A stretch of DNA of 64,000 nt from Escherichia coli (lineage in GTDB: Bacteria > Pseudomonadota > Gammaproteobacteria > Enterobacterales > Enterobacteriaceae): NCBI RefSeq assembly GCF_003334305.1, contig NZ_QOWS01000009.1; one strand, 5' to 3'. This document shows positions 15,217-58,259 of this stretch, piece after piece (position 1 is the first letter of the stretch; every line of letters begins with the position of its first letter). Both the position numbers and the translations under genes were made by a program. A model generated the notes under the pieces. It was not told the origin of the DNA, did not search any database, and worked only from the letters and a program-made list of their open reading frames with translations.

Positions 15217-16209
15217 TTACAGCAGAGAAGGGACGCTCTCGCGAACAGCAGCTGGCCATACTCCACACTGAACCTGGCCGATATGCGGCAGTTGCAGCAG
15301 CAGCATGGTCAAACGAGACTGGCCGATACCGCCGCCGATGGTCTGCGGCATTTCACCGCGCAGCAGCGCCTGATGCCATTCCAGCTGCAGACGATCTTCA
15401 TCACCGGTCAGCGCCAACTGATGCTTCAACGTGTCGGCATCCACGCGGATCCCCATGGAAGAAAGCTCAAACGCATCTTCCAGTACAGGGTTCCACACCA
15501 GAATATCGCCGTTCAGACCCGCATGACCCAGCTCTGACGGGGTGCTCCAGTCATCATAATCCGGTGCGCGCACGTCGTGGCGATGACCATCGCTCAGCTT
15601 GCCGCCAATCCCGACAAGGAATACCGCGCCAAGATCTTTCGCTATCGCCCGCTCACGCCCTTTGGCATCGAGATCCGGATAACGAGACAGTAACTCCTGG
15701 CTGTGTACGAAGTGGATCTGATCCGGCAGGAACGGTGCCAGGCCAAACTCTTCGCTAACCGCAGCTTCGGTTGCTTTAATTCCCGCCCAGATCGCCTCTA
15801 CCGTGCTTTTCAGAGTCGAGAATTGACGCTCACCGTCGCCCATTACGCGTTCCCAGTCCCACTGGTCAACATAGACCGAGTGCAACGGAGAAAGACGGTC
15901 TTCATCGGGGCGAAGGGCTTTCATGTGCGTGTACAGCCCTTCGCCCGCGCTGAAGTCGTGTTGCCCTAAGGTCTGACGTTTCCACTTCGCCAGTGAATGA
16001 ACCACTTCGAACTGGGCATCAGGCAGAACTTTCACTTTTACCTGCACCGCTTTTTCACAGCCCGACAAGTTATCCTGCGTGCCATCCCCCACACGGCTAA
16101 GAATCGGCGCCTGGACTTCGATCAGCCCCAGACGTTCTTCCAGTTGGCGAGAAAAGTGAGATTTCACGAAGCTAATTTGGCGTTGTTTGGCAATGTAAGC
16201 GGTTTTCAT
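15217..16209 (-). CDS. asnA: Aspartate-ammonia ligase / asparagine synthetase A (330 aa)
   Basis: [22 protein letters not shown]..., class II aaRS-like AsnA; divergent from asnC. Confidence 0.93.
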
Positions 16210-16360
16210 TTTTTATACTCCTGCGTCCTGTTGCTTATGATTAAGCAACAAAAACCGACACACATGCAATAATCATTCAATAAAAAGCCTAACACACTTT
16301 TGATTCATTAAAAAAGAAGGCTAAAATAGAATGAATCATCAATCTGCATAAGAAAATCCT

Positions 16361-16819
16361 ATGGAAAATTATCTGATCGACAATCTGGACCGTGGCATCC
16401 TGGAAGCATTAATGGGCAATGCGCGCACCGCTTACGCCGAACTGGCGAAACAATTTGGCGTCAGTCCGGGGACGATTCACGTTCGGGTAGAGAAAATGAA
16501 GCAGGCGGGGATCATTACCGGGGCGCGTATTGATGTCAGCCCGAAGCAGCTCGGTTATGACGTAGGCTGCTTTATCGGCATTATATTAAAGAGCGCCAAA
16601 GACTACCCTTCCGCGCTGGCAAAGCTGGAAAGCCTTGATGAAGTCACTGAAGCCTATTACACAACAGGCCACTACAGCATCTTTATAAAAGTAATGTGCC
16701 GTTCGATCGACGCTCTCCAGCATGTACTTATCAACAAGATCCAAACAATTGATGAAATTCAGTCCACCGAGACATTGATCGTCCTGCAAAACCCGATCAT
16801 GCGTACCATCAAGCCATAA
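16361..16819 (+). CDS. asnC: Lrp/AsnC-family transcriptional regulator AsnC (152 aa)
   Basis: ORF MENYLIDNLDRGILEALMGNARTAYAELAKQFGVSPGTIHVRVEKM. Confidence 0.93.
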   Translation: MENYLIDNLDRGILEALMGNARTAYAELAKQFGVSPGTIHVRVEKMKQAGIITGARIDVSPKQLGYDVGCFIGIILKSAKDYPSALAKLESLDEVTEAYYTTGHYSIFIKVMCRSIDALQHVLINKIQTIDEIQSTETLIVLQNPIMRTIKP

Positions 16820-16840
16820 TCGGCTTTTTTAATCCCATAC

Positions 16841-16880
16841 TTTTCCACAGGTAGATCCCAACGCGTTCACAGCGTACAAT
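16841..16880 (+). promoter_or_regulatory. mioC promoter region with DnaA box (TTTTCCACA 16841-16849) and -10 TACAAT (16875-16880)
   Basis: DnaA-box-like 9-mer and an adjacent GATC read directly upstream of mioC. Confidence 0.6.
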
Positions 16881-16908
16881 ACGCCACTCTTAATAAAGGT
16901 GGCGGTTT

Positions 16909-17352
16909 ATGGCAGATATCACTCTTATCAGCGGCAGCACCCTCGGCGGTGCCGAATATGTAGCAGAACACCTGGCTGAAAAGCTGGAAGAGGCGGGTTT
17001 TACCACCGAAACGCTGCACGGTCCGCTGTTGGAAGATTTATCTGCCTCGGGGATCTGGCTGATTATCAGCTCCACCCACGGTGCCGGAGATATTCCGGAC
17101 AACCTTTCTCCTTTCTATGAAGCATTGCAGGAACAGAAGCCCGATCTTTCTGCGGTCCGCTTTGGCGCAATCGGTATTGGTAGTCGTGAATATGACACCT
17201 TTTGTGGGGCTATCGATAAACTCGAGGCAGAACTCAAAAATTCCGGTGCAAAACAGACAGGCGAAACACTGAAGATCAACATTCTTGATCACGACATTCC
17301 GGAAGATCCGGCAGAAGAATGGCTGGGATCGTGGATTAATTTACTCAAATAA
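16909..17352 (+). CDS. mioC: Flavodoxin-like FMN-binding protein MioC (147 aa)
   Basis: ORF MADITLISGSTLGGAEYVAEHLAEKLEEAGF...; lies immediately next to oriC. Confidence 0.93.
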   Translation: MADITLISGSTLGGAEYVAEHLAEKLEEAGFTTETLHGPLLEDLSASGIWLIISSTHGAGDIPDNLSPFYEALQEQKPDLSAVRFGAIGIGSREYDTFCGAIDKLEAELKNSGAKQTGETLKINILDHDIPEDPAEEWLGSWINLLK

Positions 17353-17369
17353 GTATACAGATCGTGCGA

Positions 17370-17630
17370 TCTACTGTGGATAACTCTGTCAGGAAGCTTG
17401 GATCAACCGGTAGTTATCCAAGGAACAACGGTTGTTCAGTTTTTGAGTTGTGTATAACCCCTCATTCTGATCCCAGCTTATACGGTCCAGGATCACCGAT
17501 CATTCACAGTTAATGATCCTTTCCAGGTTGTTGATCTTAAAAGCCGGATCCTTGTTATCCACAGGGCAGTGCGATCCTAATAAGAGATCACAATAGAACA
17601 GATCTCTAAATAAATAGATCTTCTTTTTAA
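17370..17630. other. oriC: Chromosomal replication origin oriC: DnaA boxes R4 (17375-17383), R3 (17413-17421), R2 (17449-17457), R5M (17500-17508), R1 (17555-17563); AT-rich 13-mers R/M/L (17577-17620)
   Basis: TTATCCACA / TTATACACA 9-mers in canonical order and spacing, three GATCTnTTnTTTT-type 13-mers, dense GATC sites, position between mioC and mnmG. Confidence 0.93.
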
Positions 17631-17730
17631 TACCCAAGATCCCAGGTCTTTCTCAAGCCGACAAAGTTGAGTAGAATCCACGGCCCGGGCTTCAATCCAT
17701 TTTCATACCGCGTTATGCGAGGCAATCACC

Positions 17731-19620
17731 ATGTTTTATCCGGATCCTTTTGACGTCATCATCATTGGCGGGGGTCATGCAGGCACCGAGGCCGCGATGG
17801 CCGCGGCGCGTATGGGTCAACAGACTCTGCTTTTGACACACAATATCGACACTCTGGGGCAGATGAGCTGCAACCCGGCGATCGGCGGTATTGGGAAGGG
17901 ACATCTGGTAAAAGAAGTGGATGCACTCGGCGGTCTGATGGCGAAAGCGATCGATCAAGCGGGTATCCAGTTTAGGATACTAAACGCAAGCAAAGGACCG
18001 GCGGTTCGCGCTACCCGAGCTCAGGCGGATCGTGTGCTCTACCGTCAGGCGGTACGTACGGCGCTGGAGAACCAACCGAACCTGATGATCTTCCAGCAGG
18101 CGGTTGAAGATCTTATTGTCGAAAACGATCGCGTGGTCGGTGCTGTTACCCAAATGGGACTGAAGTTCCGTGCCAAAGCCGTCGTGCTCACCGTTGGGAC
18201 GTTCCTCGACGGTAAAATTCATATCGGTCTGGATAATTACAGCGGTGGCCGTGCTGGTGATCCGCCGTCCATTCCGCTTTCTCGCCGTTTGCGTGAACTG
18301 CCGCTGCGCGTTGGTCGTCTGAAAACCGGGACACCACCGCGTATTGATGCTCGAACTATCGACTTTAGTGTGCTGGCGCAACAGCATGGCGATAACCCAA
18401 TGCCGGTATTCTCGTTTATGGGCAATGCGTCCCAGCATCCCCAGCAGGTGCCGTGTTATATCACTCATACCAACGAGAAAACCCATGATGTGATCCGCAG
18501 TAACCTCGATCGTAGCCCAATGTATGCAGGGGTGATCGAAGGTGTCGGCCCACGCTACTGCCCGTCGATCGAAGACAAAGTCATGCGCTTCGCCGACAGA
18601 AATCAGCATCAGATCTTCCTTGAACCGGAAGGGCTGACTTCTAACGAAATTTATCCGAACGGTATCTCCACCAGCCTGCCGTTCGATGTGCAGATGCAAA
18701 TCGTCCGCTCTATGCAGGGGATGGAAAACGCGAAGATCGTGCGTCCGGGTTATGCCATTGAGTATGACTTCTTCGATCCTCGCGACCTGAAACCGACGCT
18801 GGAGAGCAAGTTTATCCAGGGGCTGTTCTTTGCTGGTCAGATTAACGGCACTACCGGTTACGAAGAAGCCGCTGCGCAAGGTTTGCTGGCCGGTCTTAAC
18901 GCTGCCCGTCTGTCTGCTGACAAAGAAGGTTGGGCTCCGGCGCGTTCTCAGGCCTATCTCGGCGTACTGGTTGATGACCTGTGCACTTTAGGAACCAAAG
19001 AACCGTATCGTATGTTTACTTCGCGCGCAGAATATCGTCTGATGCTGCGCGAAGATAATGCGGATCTGCGTTTGACTGAAATCGGTCGTGAACTGGGCCT
19101 GGTGGATGACGAACGTTGGGCGCGCTTTAACGAGAAACTTGAGAATATCGAGCGTGAGCGTCAGCGTCTGAAATCGACCTGGGTAACCCCGTCGGCGGAA
19201 GCTGCAGCCGAAGTGAATGCTCACCTGACTGCGCCGCTTTCCCGTGAAGCCAGTGGTGAAGATCTGCTGCGTCGTCCGGAAATGACTTATGAAAAATTAA
19301 CCACGCTGACGCCGTTTGCCCCTGCGTTGACAGACGAACAGGCGGCGGAACAGGTTGAGATTCAGGTTAAATACGAAGGTTATATCGCGCGCCAGCAAGA
19401 TGAGATCGAAAAGCAGCTGCGTAACGAGAACACCCTGCTACCAGCGACACTGGATTACCGCCAGGTATCCGGTCTTTCTAACGAAGTGATCGCCAAACTT
19501 AACGATCACAAACCGGCCTCTATCGGCCAGGCTTCACGTATTTCTGGCGTCACGCCTGCGGCCATCTCCATTCTGCTGGTGTGGCTGAAAAAACAGGGTA
19601 TGCTGCGTCGTAGCGCATAA
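17731..19620 (+). CDS. mnmG: tRNA uridine-5-carboxymethylaminomethyl modification enzyme MnmG/GidA (629 aa)
   Basis: FAD-binding N-terminus [22 protein letters not shown]; conserved position. Confidence 0.95.
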
Positions 19621-19683: not shown

Positions 19684-20307
19684 GTGCTCAACAAACTCTC
19701 CTTACTGCTGAAAGACGCAGGTATTTCGCTTACCGATCACCAGAAAAACCAGCTTATTGCCTACGTGAATATGCTGCATAAATGGAACAAAGCGTACAAC
19801 CTGACTTCGGTCCGCGATCCTAATGAGATGCTGGTACGCCATATTCTCGATAGCATTGTGGTGGCACCGTATCTGCAAGGTGAACGGTTTATCGATGTCG
19901 GCACCGGTCCTGGACTGCCTGGCATTCCACTCTCTATCGTGCGTCCTGAAGCCCATTTCACTCTGTTGGATAGCCTTGGTAAACGCGTGCGTTTCCTTCG
20001 TCAGGTGCAACATGAGCTTAAACTGGAGAATATTGAGCCAGTACAGAGCAGGGTAGAAGAGTTTCCTTCAGAGCCGCCATTTGATGGCGTAATTAGCCGC
20101 GCTTTTGCCTCTCTGAACGATATGGTGAGCTGGTGCCACCATCTTCCTGGTGAGCAAGGCCGTTTCTACGCGCTGAAAGGGCAAATGCCGGAAGATGAAA
20201 TCGCTTTGTTGCCCGAAGAATATCAGGTCGAATCAGTGGTTAAACTTCAGGTTCCAGCCCTGGATGGCGAACGTCATCTGGTGGTGATTAAAGCAAATAA
20301 AATTTAA
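19684..20307 (+). CDS. rsmG: 16S rRNA m7G527 methyltransferase RsmG/GidB (207 aa); GTG start
   Basis: SAM-binding motif [14 protein letters not shown]; co-transcribed position after mnmG. Confidence 0.93.
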
Positions 20308-20923: not shown

Positions 20924-22128
<1,205 letters not shown>

Positions 22129-25098: not shown

Positions 25099-27371
<2,273 letters not shown>

Positions 27372-57011: not shown

Positions 57012-58259
57012 TTAGCCAAATTTAGGTAACACGTTAAAGACGTTGCCGAACCAGCACAAAATCACGGTTATACCAAAGAGAATGACAATCGCCGGAATAA
57101 GATTGCCGCCCCAGACCGTGAACATCTGATTGGGAAACTTCTTGCGAGCTTTGATTGCAAGCACTGCGGGAATAATGACCGCCCAGATGGTGGCGCACAG
57201 CCCGGCACCGCCGATCCCGTAAATAAAGCCGTTCGGGAAGATCAGATACAACAACGCAGGTGGCAGGAAGGTTAACAGCACGGTTTTGAAACGCCCGCCG
57301 TGGGAGTTATCAATCTTAAACAGGTCCGCCAGATAATCGAACAACCCCAGCGTGACACCAAAGAACGAACTGGCAACAGCTAAGTTAGAGAACACCAGCA
57401 GGCAAAACTCGATAATGCCGTGCTGTTTGGTGCCGAGGAACGATTTCACCAGCGAATCAACGTTGCCGCCTGAGGAGATTATCGCCTTAAAGCTTTCGCG
57501 CGGAATATTCCCCATCGTGCAATAGAGCCAGAAGAGATAAATCACCAGCGCCAGCAGCGAACCAAATACCACGCTTTTGATTAACTTATCTTTGCGTTTT
57601 CCATAGCAAATAATCAGGCTGGGAATATTGCCGTGGAAACCAAATGACGCCAGACACACCGGCAAAGCCATAAAGATATACGGGAAGTAAGACGTTCCCG
57701 CAGTGGTGCTGGTGGCATCGCGCAGGATGGAGTAATCGACCTGGAAGAAGAAAGAACCAAACACGATCACAAAGGAGATAATCTTCAGCCCGAGGAACAA
57801 TGAGGTAATGCGACTGGCGGCTAACGAACTTATCCACAATACGCTGGCAACGAAAATGGCTGTGCAGATCCCGACAATACGTGGATTAGCGTGATAGCCC
57901 AAATTCATTGATATCGTTTCACTAATGATCGCACCATTAGCAGAGATATAGGCATAAGTGAGGATATAGAGAACGAAGGCAACGGTAATACCGCTGATAA
58001 TGTTCCAGGTGTTACCGATTAAATCTTTGGTGATGGTGTTAAAACTGGAGCCGACAGGATAATTTAAATTTGCTTCTAATAACAATAACCCGGAATGAAG
58101 CATTGAAAACCAGGCAATGATAAGGATAAAGGCACCCCAGAAAAACCAGGCACCGGCAAGATCAACAGGTAAAGCAAACATACCTCCACCAATTACTGTA
58201 CCTGCTATAACCATAACACCCCAAAATGCAGAGTGCTTTTTTTCAGCTTGATCAGTCAT
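57012..58259 (-). CDS. tnaB: Low-affinity tryptophan permease TnaB (415 aa)
   Basis: Aromatic amino acid permease family; follows tnaA. Confidence 0.95.
   Translation of the reverse strand: MTDQAEKKHSAFWGVMVIAGTVIGGGMFALPVDLAGAWFFWGAFILIIAWFSMLHSGLLLLEANLNYPVGSSFNTITKDLIGNTWNIISGITVAFVLYILTYAYISANGAIISETISMNLGYHANPRIVGICTAIFVASVLWISSLAASRITSLFLGLKIISFVIVFGSFFFQVDYSILRDATSTTAGTSYFPYIFMALPVCLASFGFHGNIPSLIICYGKRKDKLIKSVVFGSLLALVIYLFWLYCTMGNIPRESFKAIISSGGNVDSLVKSFLGTKQHGIIEFCLLVFSNLAVASSFFGVTLGLFDYLADLFKIDNSHGGRFKTVLLTFLPPALLYLIFPNGFIYGIGGAGLCATIWAVIIPAVLAIKARKKFPNQMFTVWGGNLIPAIVILFGITVILCWFGNVFNVLPKFG

What the first reader, a model, noticed from the sequence alone, without database searches (positions are those of the whole stretch)
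16841..16880. DnaA box in the mioC promoter adjacent to oriC
TTTTCCACA plus GATC directly upstream of the mioC -10 suggests DnaA and methylation-coupled control of transcription that reads into oriC.
Basis: partly seen in the sequence, partly recalled or inferred. Interest (0 to 1): 0.2.

Follow-up and report, generated by a model that had tools for sequence, protein, structure and literature searches.

The report
Known DnaA box in mioC promoter
This is the long-studied binding site for the replication initiator DnaA in the promoter of mioC, the gene next to the E. coli replication origin, so the finding is correct but already known.

Summary
The window is an E. coli chromosome segment ordered asnA-asnC-mioC-oriC-mnmG(gidA). 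The 40-mer is identical to K-12 MG1655.

Hansen and Atlung (2018) name TTTTCCACA as "the mioC (R5) box". A published dRNA-seq start site, which overlaps a RegulonDB entry, maps to window 16885-16887.

In 105 Enterobacterales sequences the aligned 9-mer fits the strict DnaA-box consensus in 87 and has one misfit in the other 18. GATC is kept in 103 and TACAAT in 102, while the flanks vary.

No terminator-like site separates mioC from oriC, and the literature states that mioC transcription reads into oriC.

The methylation part is not supported. The GATC sits inside the -35 hexamer. It is isolated, with neighbours 59 bp upstream and 198 bp downstream. [quoted passage not shown]

Verdict: real, functional, already known, low interest.

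The parts
16841..16849 (+). High-affinity DnaA box TTTTCCACA. This is 'R5' in the mioC-promoter nomenclature of Hansen et al., not the R5/M site inside oriC. It lies at -46..-38 relative to the start site.
   Evidence: Sequence and strict consensus match. Identical to K-12. Named in PMC5835720. Strict consensus in 87 of 105 Enterobacterales and one misfit in the other 18.
16852..16857 (+). -35 hexamer TAGATC (3 of 6 matches to TTGACA), 17 bp from the -10. It contains the GATC at 16854-16857.
   Evidence: Sequence. The placement is inferred from the 17-bp spacer to TACAAT and from the mapped start site. GATC is kept in 103 of 105 species. The simple promoter scan missed it because that scan needs at least 4 of 6 matches.
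16875..16880 (+). -10 hexamer TACAAT of the mioC promoter.
   Evidence: Sequence. Kept in 102 of 105 species, and the block CACAGCGTACAAT is nearly invariant.
16885..16887 (+). mioC transcription start site, giving a 22-24 nt leader before the ATG at 16909.
   Evidence: Romero et al. 2014 (PMC4681348) Table S2 lists RVS_(I)-3924502, range 3924500-3924502 in U00096.2, with 'Overlap with RegulonDB: YES'. I converted with +1977 to U00096.3 (offset from my own knowledge and the record lengths) and then with window = 3943364 - K-12 position.
16829..16871 (+). 43-bp head-to-tail array of four 9-mers around R5: TTAATCCCA (16829-37, 2 misfits), R5, TAGATCCCA (16852-60, 4 misfits) and GCGTTCACA (16863-71, 3 misfits). 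Spacings are 3, 2 and 2 bp. These are candidates for the published low-affinity boxes (R7, R8, A) that cover the -35 hexamer and the spacer.
   Evidence: Misfit counts. PMC5835720 and PMC4585315 state that there are five verified boxes, with R5 and R6 high affinity and R7, R8 and A low affinity. Which 9-mer carries which name was not verified, because the figures are not held. The 43-bp, same-orientation geometry matches my recollection of the Hansen et al. 2007 abstract.
16728..16736 (+). Candidate distal DnaA box R6, TTATCAACA (1 misfit), inside the asnC coding sequence with 104 bp between it and R5.
   Evidence: Present in 78 of 97 species. Synonymous third positions 16729-16741 show 0.81-0.96 majority against a gene-wide mean of 0.64. 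The identification with R6 rests on my recollection that R6 has one misfit and lies 104 bp upstream.
16909..17352 (+). mioC coding sequence (147 aa FMN-binding flavoprotein), transcribed towards oriC.
   Evidence: ORF. RefSeq annotation of matching E. coli genomes.
16361..16819 (+). asnC coding sequence. A weak terminator-like hairpin at 16811-16826 ends just upstream of the DnaA-box array.
17375..17620 (.). Minimal oriC, running from DnaA box R4 (17375-17383) through R2 (17449-17457) and R1 (17555-17563) to the left 13-mer. This is the target of mioC read-through transcription.
   Evidence: Boxes. The K-12 oriC feature 3925744-3925975 maps to window 17389-17620. No terminator-like site lies between 17352 and oriC.

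Best explanation
The 40 bp are the core of the E. coli mioC promoter (PmioC), including its principal DnaA operator.

Anatomy:
- RNA polymerase uses TAGATC (-35) and TACAAT (-10) and starts at 16885-16887.
- The consensus DnaA box TTTTCCACA sits 2 bp upstream of the -35 hexamer.
- This box heads a same-orientation array of weaker boxes that runs across the -35 hexamer and the spacer.

Mechanism:
- DnaA binds the strong box. DnaA-ATP then spreads cooperatively over the weak boxes, helped by a distal box about 104 bp upstream inside asnC. This occludes the promoter.
- mioC transcription is therefore shut off when DnaA-ATP is high, just before initiation.
- It resumes after initiation, when DnaA is titrated and hydrolysed.
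- When the promoter is active, transcripts run through mioC into oriC because there is no terminator between them.
- The same array acts as a DnaA-titrating site next to the origin.

Shown here: motif positions, identity to K-12, the start site via a published dataset, deep conservation, and absence of a terminator. Taken from the literature: DnaA binding, repression, titration and read-through. Inferred: the occlusion geometry.
For: - The window is E. coli with gene order asnA-asnC-mioC-oriC-mnmG.
- The 40-mer is identical to K-12.
- PMC5835720 names 'the mioC (R5) box TTTTCCACA'. It reports that repression of PmioC varies with the affinity of box variants, that there are five verified boxes, and that the region titrates about eight DnaA monomers.
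- PMC4585315 states that DnaA-ATP represses PmioC before initiation by binding five boxes within or close to the promoter, only one of them strict consensus.
- PMC4446571 states that DnaA sites overlap the mioC promoter and that replication initiation de-represses it.
- A Class I start site overlapping RegulonDB maps to window 16885-16887.
- Phylogenetic footprint over 105 Enterobacterales sequences: strict box in 87 and one misfit in 18, GATC in 103, TACAAT in 102, with variable flanks.
- The candidate distal box shows raised synonymous-site conservation inside asnC.
- No terminator-like site lies between mioC and oriC. Read-into-oriC is stated in PMC6606810 and PMC4621074.
Against: Nothing contradicts the identification. 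The limits are these.
- The primary footprinting and promoter-mapping papers (Lother 1985, Rokeach and Zyskind 1986, Bogan and Helmstetter 1996/1997, Hansen 2006/2007) are not held in the library. DnaA binding and repression therefore rest on reviews and later papers that cite them.
- The U00096.2 to U00096.3 offset (+1977) is from my own knowledge. It is cross-checked only by the asnA start site falling 23 nt before the asnA ATG.
It is biased towards genomes with a conserved origin.
- The physiological importance is doubtful. Blocking chromosomal mioC transcription does not affect replication initiation (PMC6606810, PMC4446571, PMC4621074).
Confidence: 0.94

Rival explanations
1. Methylation-coupled control. 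The GATC in the -35 hexamer becomes hemimethylated after the fork passes. Through SeqA binding, or through methylation-sensitive binding of RNA polymerase or DnaA, this contributes to the cell-cycle timing of mioC transcription.
For: - The GATC lies inside the -35 hexamer and is kept in 103 of 105 Enterobacterales.
- SeqA ChIP-chip reports binding at the mioC gene and lists it among genes transiently repressed on replication (PMC2912659).
Against: - The GATC is isolated, 59 bp from the upstream GATC and 198 bp from the downstream one. From my own knowledge, SeqA needs closely spaced hemimethylated sites, as PMC5835720 also notes.
- PMC4446571 assigns SeqA control to gidA and DnaA control to mioC.
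- The invariance of the GATC is not specific. All of 16844-16860 is nearly invariant, as expected for overlapping -35, DnaA and MraZ constraints.
- The ChIP-chip signal spans kilobases. The GATC cluster at 17274-17327 plus oriC can explain it.
Confidence: 0.12
2. The conserved role of the box array is not control of oriC firing by transcription. Instead it provides (a) DnaA titration beside the origin and (b) coupling of MioC protein expression to the replication cycle. This does not exclude the best explanation. It differs only in which output selection acts on.
For: - The PmioC region titrates DnaA as efficiently as an inactivated oriC, about eight monomers (PMC5835720).
- Chromosomal PmioC mutations do not change initiation timing or rate, but they lengthen cells. 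[quoted passage not shown]
- The promoter core is conserved across Enterobacterales together with mioC itself.
Against: - oriC minichromosomes do depend on mioC/gidA transcription.
- Strains with a crippled oriC need mioC or gidA for viability.
Confidence: 0.4
3. The conserved sequence around the box is chiefly an operator for MraZ, the division-cluster repressor, rather than for DnaA.
For: - PMC4446571 reports, citing Eraso et al. 2014, that MraZ binds a site overlapping the mioC-promoter DnaA box and that its overproduction lowers mioC transcription about 12-fold.
- The minus strand of 16829-16862 carries TGGGA...TGGA...TGGGA repeats (my own reading).
Against: - The 9-mer fits the DnaA consensus strictly or with one misfit in all 105 species, alternating only between TTATCCACA and TTTTCCACA types.
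- Box-swap experiments link DnaA affinity to repression.
- The Eraso paper is not held, so the MraZ site could not be placed.
Confidence: 0.1
4. The 9-mer is a chance match to a short degenerate consensus.
For: About 5.7 matches are expected per 64 kb. The observed 11 is reached in 3 of 100 shuffles.
Against: - Fixed position and orientation relative to the -35 hexamer, the -10 hexamer and the mioC ATG in 105 species down to 45% MioC identity.
- Experimental literature on DnaA binding and repression.
Confidence: 0.01

Closest known systems
E. coli K-12 mioC promoter (PmioC) with DnaA boxes R5, R6, R7, R8 and A (Hansen et al. 2006/2007; reviewed in Hansen and Atlung 2018, PMC5835720)
   Same: The window's 40 bp are base-for-base the K-12 sequence. 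Gene order, box sequence TTTTCCACA, -10 hexamer and start site all coincide. This is the same element in another E. coli strain.
   Different: There are no differences in the core. Just upstream, the asnC stop region differs from K-12 at 16816 and 16818. This removes a GATC that K-12 and most Enterobacterales have.
dnaA promoter region (dnaA1p/dnaA2p), DnaA-autoregulated and sequestered
   Same: Both have a consensus DnaA box flanked by weaker boxes between or at promoter elements, and both are repressed preferentially by DnaA-ATP.
   Different: [quoted passage not shown] PmioC has a single isolated GATC and is reported as not sequestered.
[quoted passage not shown]
   Same: It flanks the origin, and its transcription is cell-cycle regulated and linked to oriC topology.
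   Different: It has no DnaA boxes, it reads away from oriC, and it is controlled by SeqA and sequestration rather than by DnaA.
oriC R-type DnaA boxes R1, R2 and R4
   Same: Same 9-mer family, TTWTNCACA.
   Different: R1 and R4 are TTATCCACA and serve origin unwinding. The mioC box is the TTTT type, for which only C at position 5 gives strong binding, and it acts as a transcriptional operator and titration site.

Membership tests
R-type DnaA box (TTWTNCACA) | 9-mer matches the strict consensus | tested here: met
   TTTTCCACA at 16841-16849 with 0 mismatches.
R-type DnaA box (TTWTNCACA) | Bound by DnaA protein with high affinity | not testable with these tools
   Literature only. PMC5835720 reports gel-shift and in vivo titration for the mioC (R5) box TTTTCCACA.
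R-type DnaA box (TTWTNCACA) | Conserved in position and orientation in related genomes | tested here: met
   Strict consensus in 87 of 105 sequences and one misfit in 18, always 13 nt (start to start) upstream of the -35 GATC.
E. coli mioC promoter (PmioC) | Lies upstream of mioC, between asnC and mioC, on the oriC-proximal side | tested here: met
   asnC 16361-16819, mioC 16909-17352 and oriC from 17375.
E. coli mioC promoter (PmioC) | Mapped transcription start downstream of the proposed -10 | tested here: met
   A published Class I start site overlapping RegulonDB converts to window 16885-16887, 5-7 nt after TACAAT. The conversion offset is from my own knowledge.
E. coli mioC promoter (PmioC) | Sequence identity with the characterised K-12 promoter | tested here: met
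   The 40-mer is identical, and there are no differences between 16819 and 17030.
E. coli mioC promoter (PmioC) | Repressed by DnaA (DnaA-ATP) in vivo and in vitro | not testable with these tools
   Literature: PMC4585315, PMC5835720 and PMC4446571.
E. coli mioC promoter (PmioC) | Transcripts continue into oriC | tested here: inconclusive
   No terminator-like site between 17352 and oriC is consistent with read-through but is not proof. Read-through is stated in PMC6606810 and PMC4621074.
SeqA-sequestered / Dam-controlled promoter (dnaA and gidA type) | Two or more closely spaced GATC sites at the promoter | tested here: not met
   A single GATC at 16854, with neighbours at 16795 (59 bp) and 17052 (198 bp).
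SeqA-sequestered / Dam-controlled promoter (dnaA and gidA type) | GATC overlaps a promoter element | tested here: met
   The GATC occupies positions 3-6 of the -35 hexamer TAGATC.
SeqA-sequestered / Dam-controlled promoter (dnaA and gidA type) | Prolonged hemimethylation and transcriptional shut-off after replication | not testable with these tools
   The literature conflicts. PMC5835720 says 'not sequestered'. PMC2912659 reports SeqA ChIP-chip signal over the mioC gene.

The most novel reading that the evidence does not exclude
The GATC inside the -35 hexamer, kept in 103 of 105 Enterobacterales, could be a real methylation sensor. Its transient hemimethylation after fork passage would change the affinity of RNA polymerase, of DnaA at the overlapping weak box, or of MraZ. 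This would sharpen the post-initiation burst of mioC transcription independently of classical SeqA sequestration. My evidence does not exclude this, but the invariance of the GATC is no greater than that of the surrounding 17 bp.
Probability: 0.08. Interest if true: 0.3.

Novelty: already known. Interest (0 to 1): 0.08.

Why it matters
The finding matters little as a discovery. This DnaA box and its promoter have been studied since the 1980s as a model for DnaA as a transcription factor, for initiator titration, and for transcription that enters oriC. It also adds a small descriptive point: the promoter core (strong box, -35 hexamer with GATC, CACAGCGTACAAT) is almost invariant across more than 100 Enterobacterales species, even though mioC transcription is dispensable for chromosomal initiation in the laboratory. 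That contrast remains the open question about this locus.

Tried and rejected
- The simple sigma-70 scan did not report PmioC, because its -35 hexamer matches only 3 of 6 positions. This reflects the scan's threshold and is not evidence against the promoter.
- Single-motif statistics cannot by themselves separate the box from chance. I replaced them with conservation tests.
- The classic primary papers are not held: Bogan and Helmstetter 1996, Bates et al. 1997, Thomason et al. 2015 and Eraso et al. 2014.
- Start-site look-ups in the Cappable-seq supplement and the Shigella M90T supplement found nothing. Romero et al. 2014 gave the start site.
- I first assumed the window was strain ST2350, which is 100% identical over 16200-17750. 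Over 49 kb it is only 99.57% identical, with 10 gaps. The frameshift annotated in that strain's ravA is absent here, since the window's ravA ORF is intact, so I dropped that note.
- I did not assign the published names R7, R8 and A to particular 9-mers, because the figure showing them is not held.

Full report
**What is there**

The sequence at 16841-16880 reads TTTTCCACAGGTAGATCCCAACGCGTTCACAGCGTACAAT. TTTTCCACA is at 16841-16849, GATC at 16854-16857 and TACAAT at 16875-16880. The ORFs around it are asnA (-, 15217-16209), asnC (+, 16361-16819), mioC (+, 16909-17352), mnmG/gidA (+, 17731-19620) and rsmG (+, 19684-20307). Between mioC and mnmG lie three consensus DnaA boxes at 17375, 17449 and 17555 and a dense run of GATC sites. 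That interval is oriC.

**Origin of the window**

Megablast of 16200-17750 hits 5425 of 5426 complete E. coli genomes, always on the chromosome, under asnC, mioC, mnmG and asnA. The window is therefore an E. coli origin region. It is 98.9% identical to K-12 MG1655 over that stretch (17 substitutions). The coordinate relation is window x = 3943364 - position in NC_000913.3.

**Is it more than chance?**

As a motif alone, no. TTWTNCACA occurs 11 times in 64 kb against 5.7 +/- 2.4 expected, and 3 of 100 shuffles reach 11. Conservation settles the question.

- Within E. coli, the 65 bp at 16826-16890 are present in 5425 of 5426 genomes, at >=99% identity in 4843.
I located mioC by tblastn and aligned the 130 nt upstream of its start codon from 104 species plus the window.
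- At the aligned position of the box, 47 sequences have TTATCCACA, 40 have TTTTCCACA and the other 18 have a single misfit.
- GATC is kept in 103 of 105 sequences and TACAAT in 102 of 105.
- Positions 16844-16860 and 16868-16880 are mostly >=95% invariant (none below 80%). The 5' leader, the spacer 16861-16867 and the asnC-proximal intergenic sequence are only 20-70% conserved.
- The sample spans Escherichia, Citrobacter, Enterobacter, Klebsiella, Yersinia, Serratia, Rahnella, Pantoea, Erwinia, Pectobacterium, Dickeya and Sodalis, with MioC identity down to about 45%.
- Caveat: the loci were chosen by a conserved oriC word, so the sample is biased towards genomes with a conserved origin.

TACAAT with a 17-bp spacer implies the -35 hexamer TAGATC (16852-16857, 3 of 6 matches). 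That weak match explains why the consensus scan, which needs 4 of 6, did not list the promoter.

Romero et al. 2014 (PMC4681348) mapped E. coli K-12 start sites by differential plus global RNA-seq against U00096.2. Their Table S2 lists a Class I reverse-strand start site at 3924500-3924502 marked 'Overlap with RegulonDB: YES'. I added the 1977-nt offset between U00096.2 and U00096.3. The offset is from my own knowledge. It equals the difference in record lengths, and it places the neighbouring forward start site 23 nt before the asnA ATG. The result is 3926477-3926479, which is window 16885-16887. That is 5-7 nt after TACAAT and 22-24 nt before the mioC ATG.

Relative to the start site at 16887, the box is at -46..-38, the GATC at -33..-30 and the -10 hexamer at -12..-7. 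The box and the GATC are thus at and just upstream of the -35 hexamer, not directly upstream of the -10.

**What the literature says**

- Hansen and Atlung, 'The DnaA Tale' (PMC5835720), name 'the mioC (R5) box TTTTCCACA'.
- They report that among TTTT-type boxes only C at position 5 binds well, and that replacing the box in PmioC plasmids changes DnaA titration and repression in step with affinity.
- They also report that five DnaA boxes in the region are experimentally verified, and that one promoter region titrates about eight DnaA monomers.
- Frimodt-Moller et al. (PMC4585315) state that DnaA-ATP represses PmioC before initiation through five boxes within or close to the promoter. R5 and R6 are high affinity, R7, R8 and A are low affinity, and only one is strict consensus.
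- Lies et al. (PMC4446571) show DnaA sites overlapping PmioC and describe de-repression at initiation.
- mioC transcription 'reads into oriC' (PMC6606810), and some transcripts cross it entirely (PMC4621074). Consistent with this, no terminator-like site lies between the mioC stop at 17352 and oriC.

Around R5 there is a same-orientation series of 9-mers: TTAATCCCA (16829-37, 2 misfits), R5, TAGATCCCA (16852-60, 4 misfits) and GCGTTCACA (16863-71, 3 misfits). The gaps are 3, 2 and 2 bp, giving 43 bp in all and covering the -35 hexamer and the spacer. This fits my recollection of Hansen et al. 2007 (four boxes, same orientation, 2-3 bp spacing, 43 bp), but I could not check the box names.

TTATCAACA at 16728-16736 (1 misfit) ends 104 bp before R5 starts, inside asnC. 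It occurs in 78 of 97 species. Its synonymous third positions are 0.81-0.96 conserved against a gene mean of 0.64. This supports a DNA-level constraint and fits the published distal box R6.

**Mechanism**

DnaA binds R5, and DnaA-ATP extends over the weak boxes across the -35 hexamer and spacer with help from R6. This excludes RNA polymerase. After initiation, DnaA is displaced and its ATP form drops, so the promoter fires and transcripts enter oriC. Binding, repression, titration and read-through come from the literature. The occlusion geometry is my inference from the positions.

**The methylation claim**

- The GATC at 16854 is isolated. The nearest GATCs are at 16795 (59 bp) and 17052 (198 bp), whereas in oriC spacings are mostly 7-33 bp.
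- In this strain the asnC stop region (TAA, against TGA in K-12) has lost a further GATC that K-12 and most Enterobacterales have.
- Lies et al. assign SeqA control to gidA and DnaA control to mioC.
- Against this, a SeqA ChIP-chip study lists mioC among bound, transiently repressed genes (PMC2912659). Its signals span kilobases, however, and the 3' end of mioC carries a GATC cluster (17274-17327) contiguous with oriC.
- The near-invariance of the -35 GATC is no greater than that of its neighbours. I therefore rate methylation coupling at this site as unproven and unlikely.

**Physiological weight**

Several papers report that abolishing chromosomal mioC transcription does not change initiation, although minichromosomes and crippled origins depend on it. 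PmioC mutants are about 35% longer. [quoted passage not shown] The conserved output of the operator may thus be DnaA titration or cell-cycle-timed MioC expression rather than control of origin firing. An MraZ site is reported to overlap the DnaA box, but I could not read that paper.

**Verdict**

The element is the K-12 mioC promoter R5 box, base for base. It is already known and of low interest.

Noticed in passing
window 16816-16821: The asnC stop region reads CCATAATCGG here and CCCTGATCGG in K-12 (differences at 16816 and 16818). The stop codon is TAA instead of TGA, and a GATC is lost that K-12 and most Enterobacterales have about 36 bp upstream of the -35 GATC. This strain's mioC promoter is therefore even poorer in GATC sites than K-12.
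   Followed up: partly
window 17414-17422 and 17430: oriC DnaA box R3 reads TTATCCAAG here and TTATCCAAA in K-12, and a second oriC substitution lies at 17430 (G here, T in K-12). Frimodt-Moller et al. 2015 describe 10 of 59 E. coli strains with an R3 variant two misfits from consensus, which matches this one.
   Followed up: partly
window 16726-16741: Inside the asnC coding sequence, the one-misfit DnaA box TTATCAACA and the adjacent GATC show raised synonymous-site conservation across 97 Enterobacterales (0.81-0.96 against a gene mean of 0.64). This indicates a DNA-level constraint embedded in a coding region and is probably the published distal box R6.
   Followed up: yes
window 17274-17330: Four GATC sites lie within 57 bp at the 3' end of mioC (17274, 17287, 17305, 17327) and continue into the oriC GATC cluster. 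They probably account for the SeqA ChIP signal reported over mioC, rather than the promoter GATC.
   Followed up: partly
window 17352-17380, minus strand: A promoter-like match, TCCACA-17-TATACT, overlaps DnaA box R4 and points from oriC into the 3' end of mioC (antisense). It is a consensus match only and might correspond to one of the origin-internal promoters described in the older literature.
   Followed up: no
window about 31800-36800: A long polar fimbria operon (lpfA-D, O113 type) sits between glmS and pstS. This is judged from the annotation of the 99.6%-identical strain ST2350, which aligns contiguously with the window. The operon is absent from K-12 at this position (my own knowledge).
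   Followed up: no
window 1733-1741, 11064-11072, 16051-16059, 22040-22048, 27347-27355, 32761-32769, 57830-57838: Seven further strict-consensus DnaA boxes lie outside the mioC-oriC cluster. One is upstream of the 16S rRNA gene at the start of the window, and others are inside kup, asnA, atpB and atpD. The count is at chance level, and none was examined for conservation.
   Followed up: no
window 16833-16860, minus strand: TGGGA ... TGGA ... TGGGA repeats on the minus strand (TCCCA at 16833-16837 and 16856-16860 on the plus strand) flank and overlap the R5 box. They may be the MraZ operator reported to overlap the mioC DnaA box. The primary paper could not be read.
   Followed up: no
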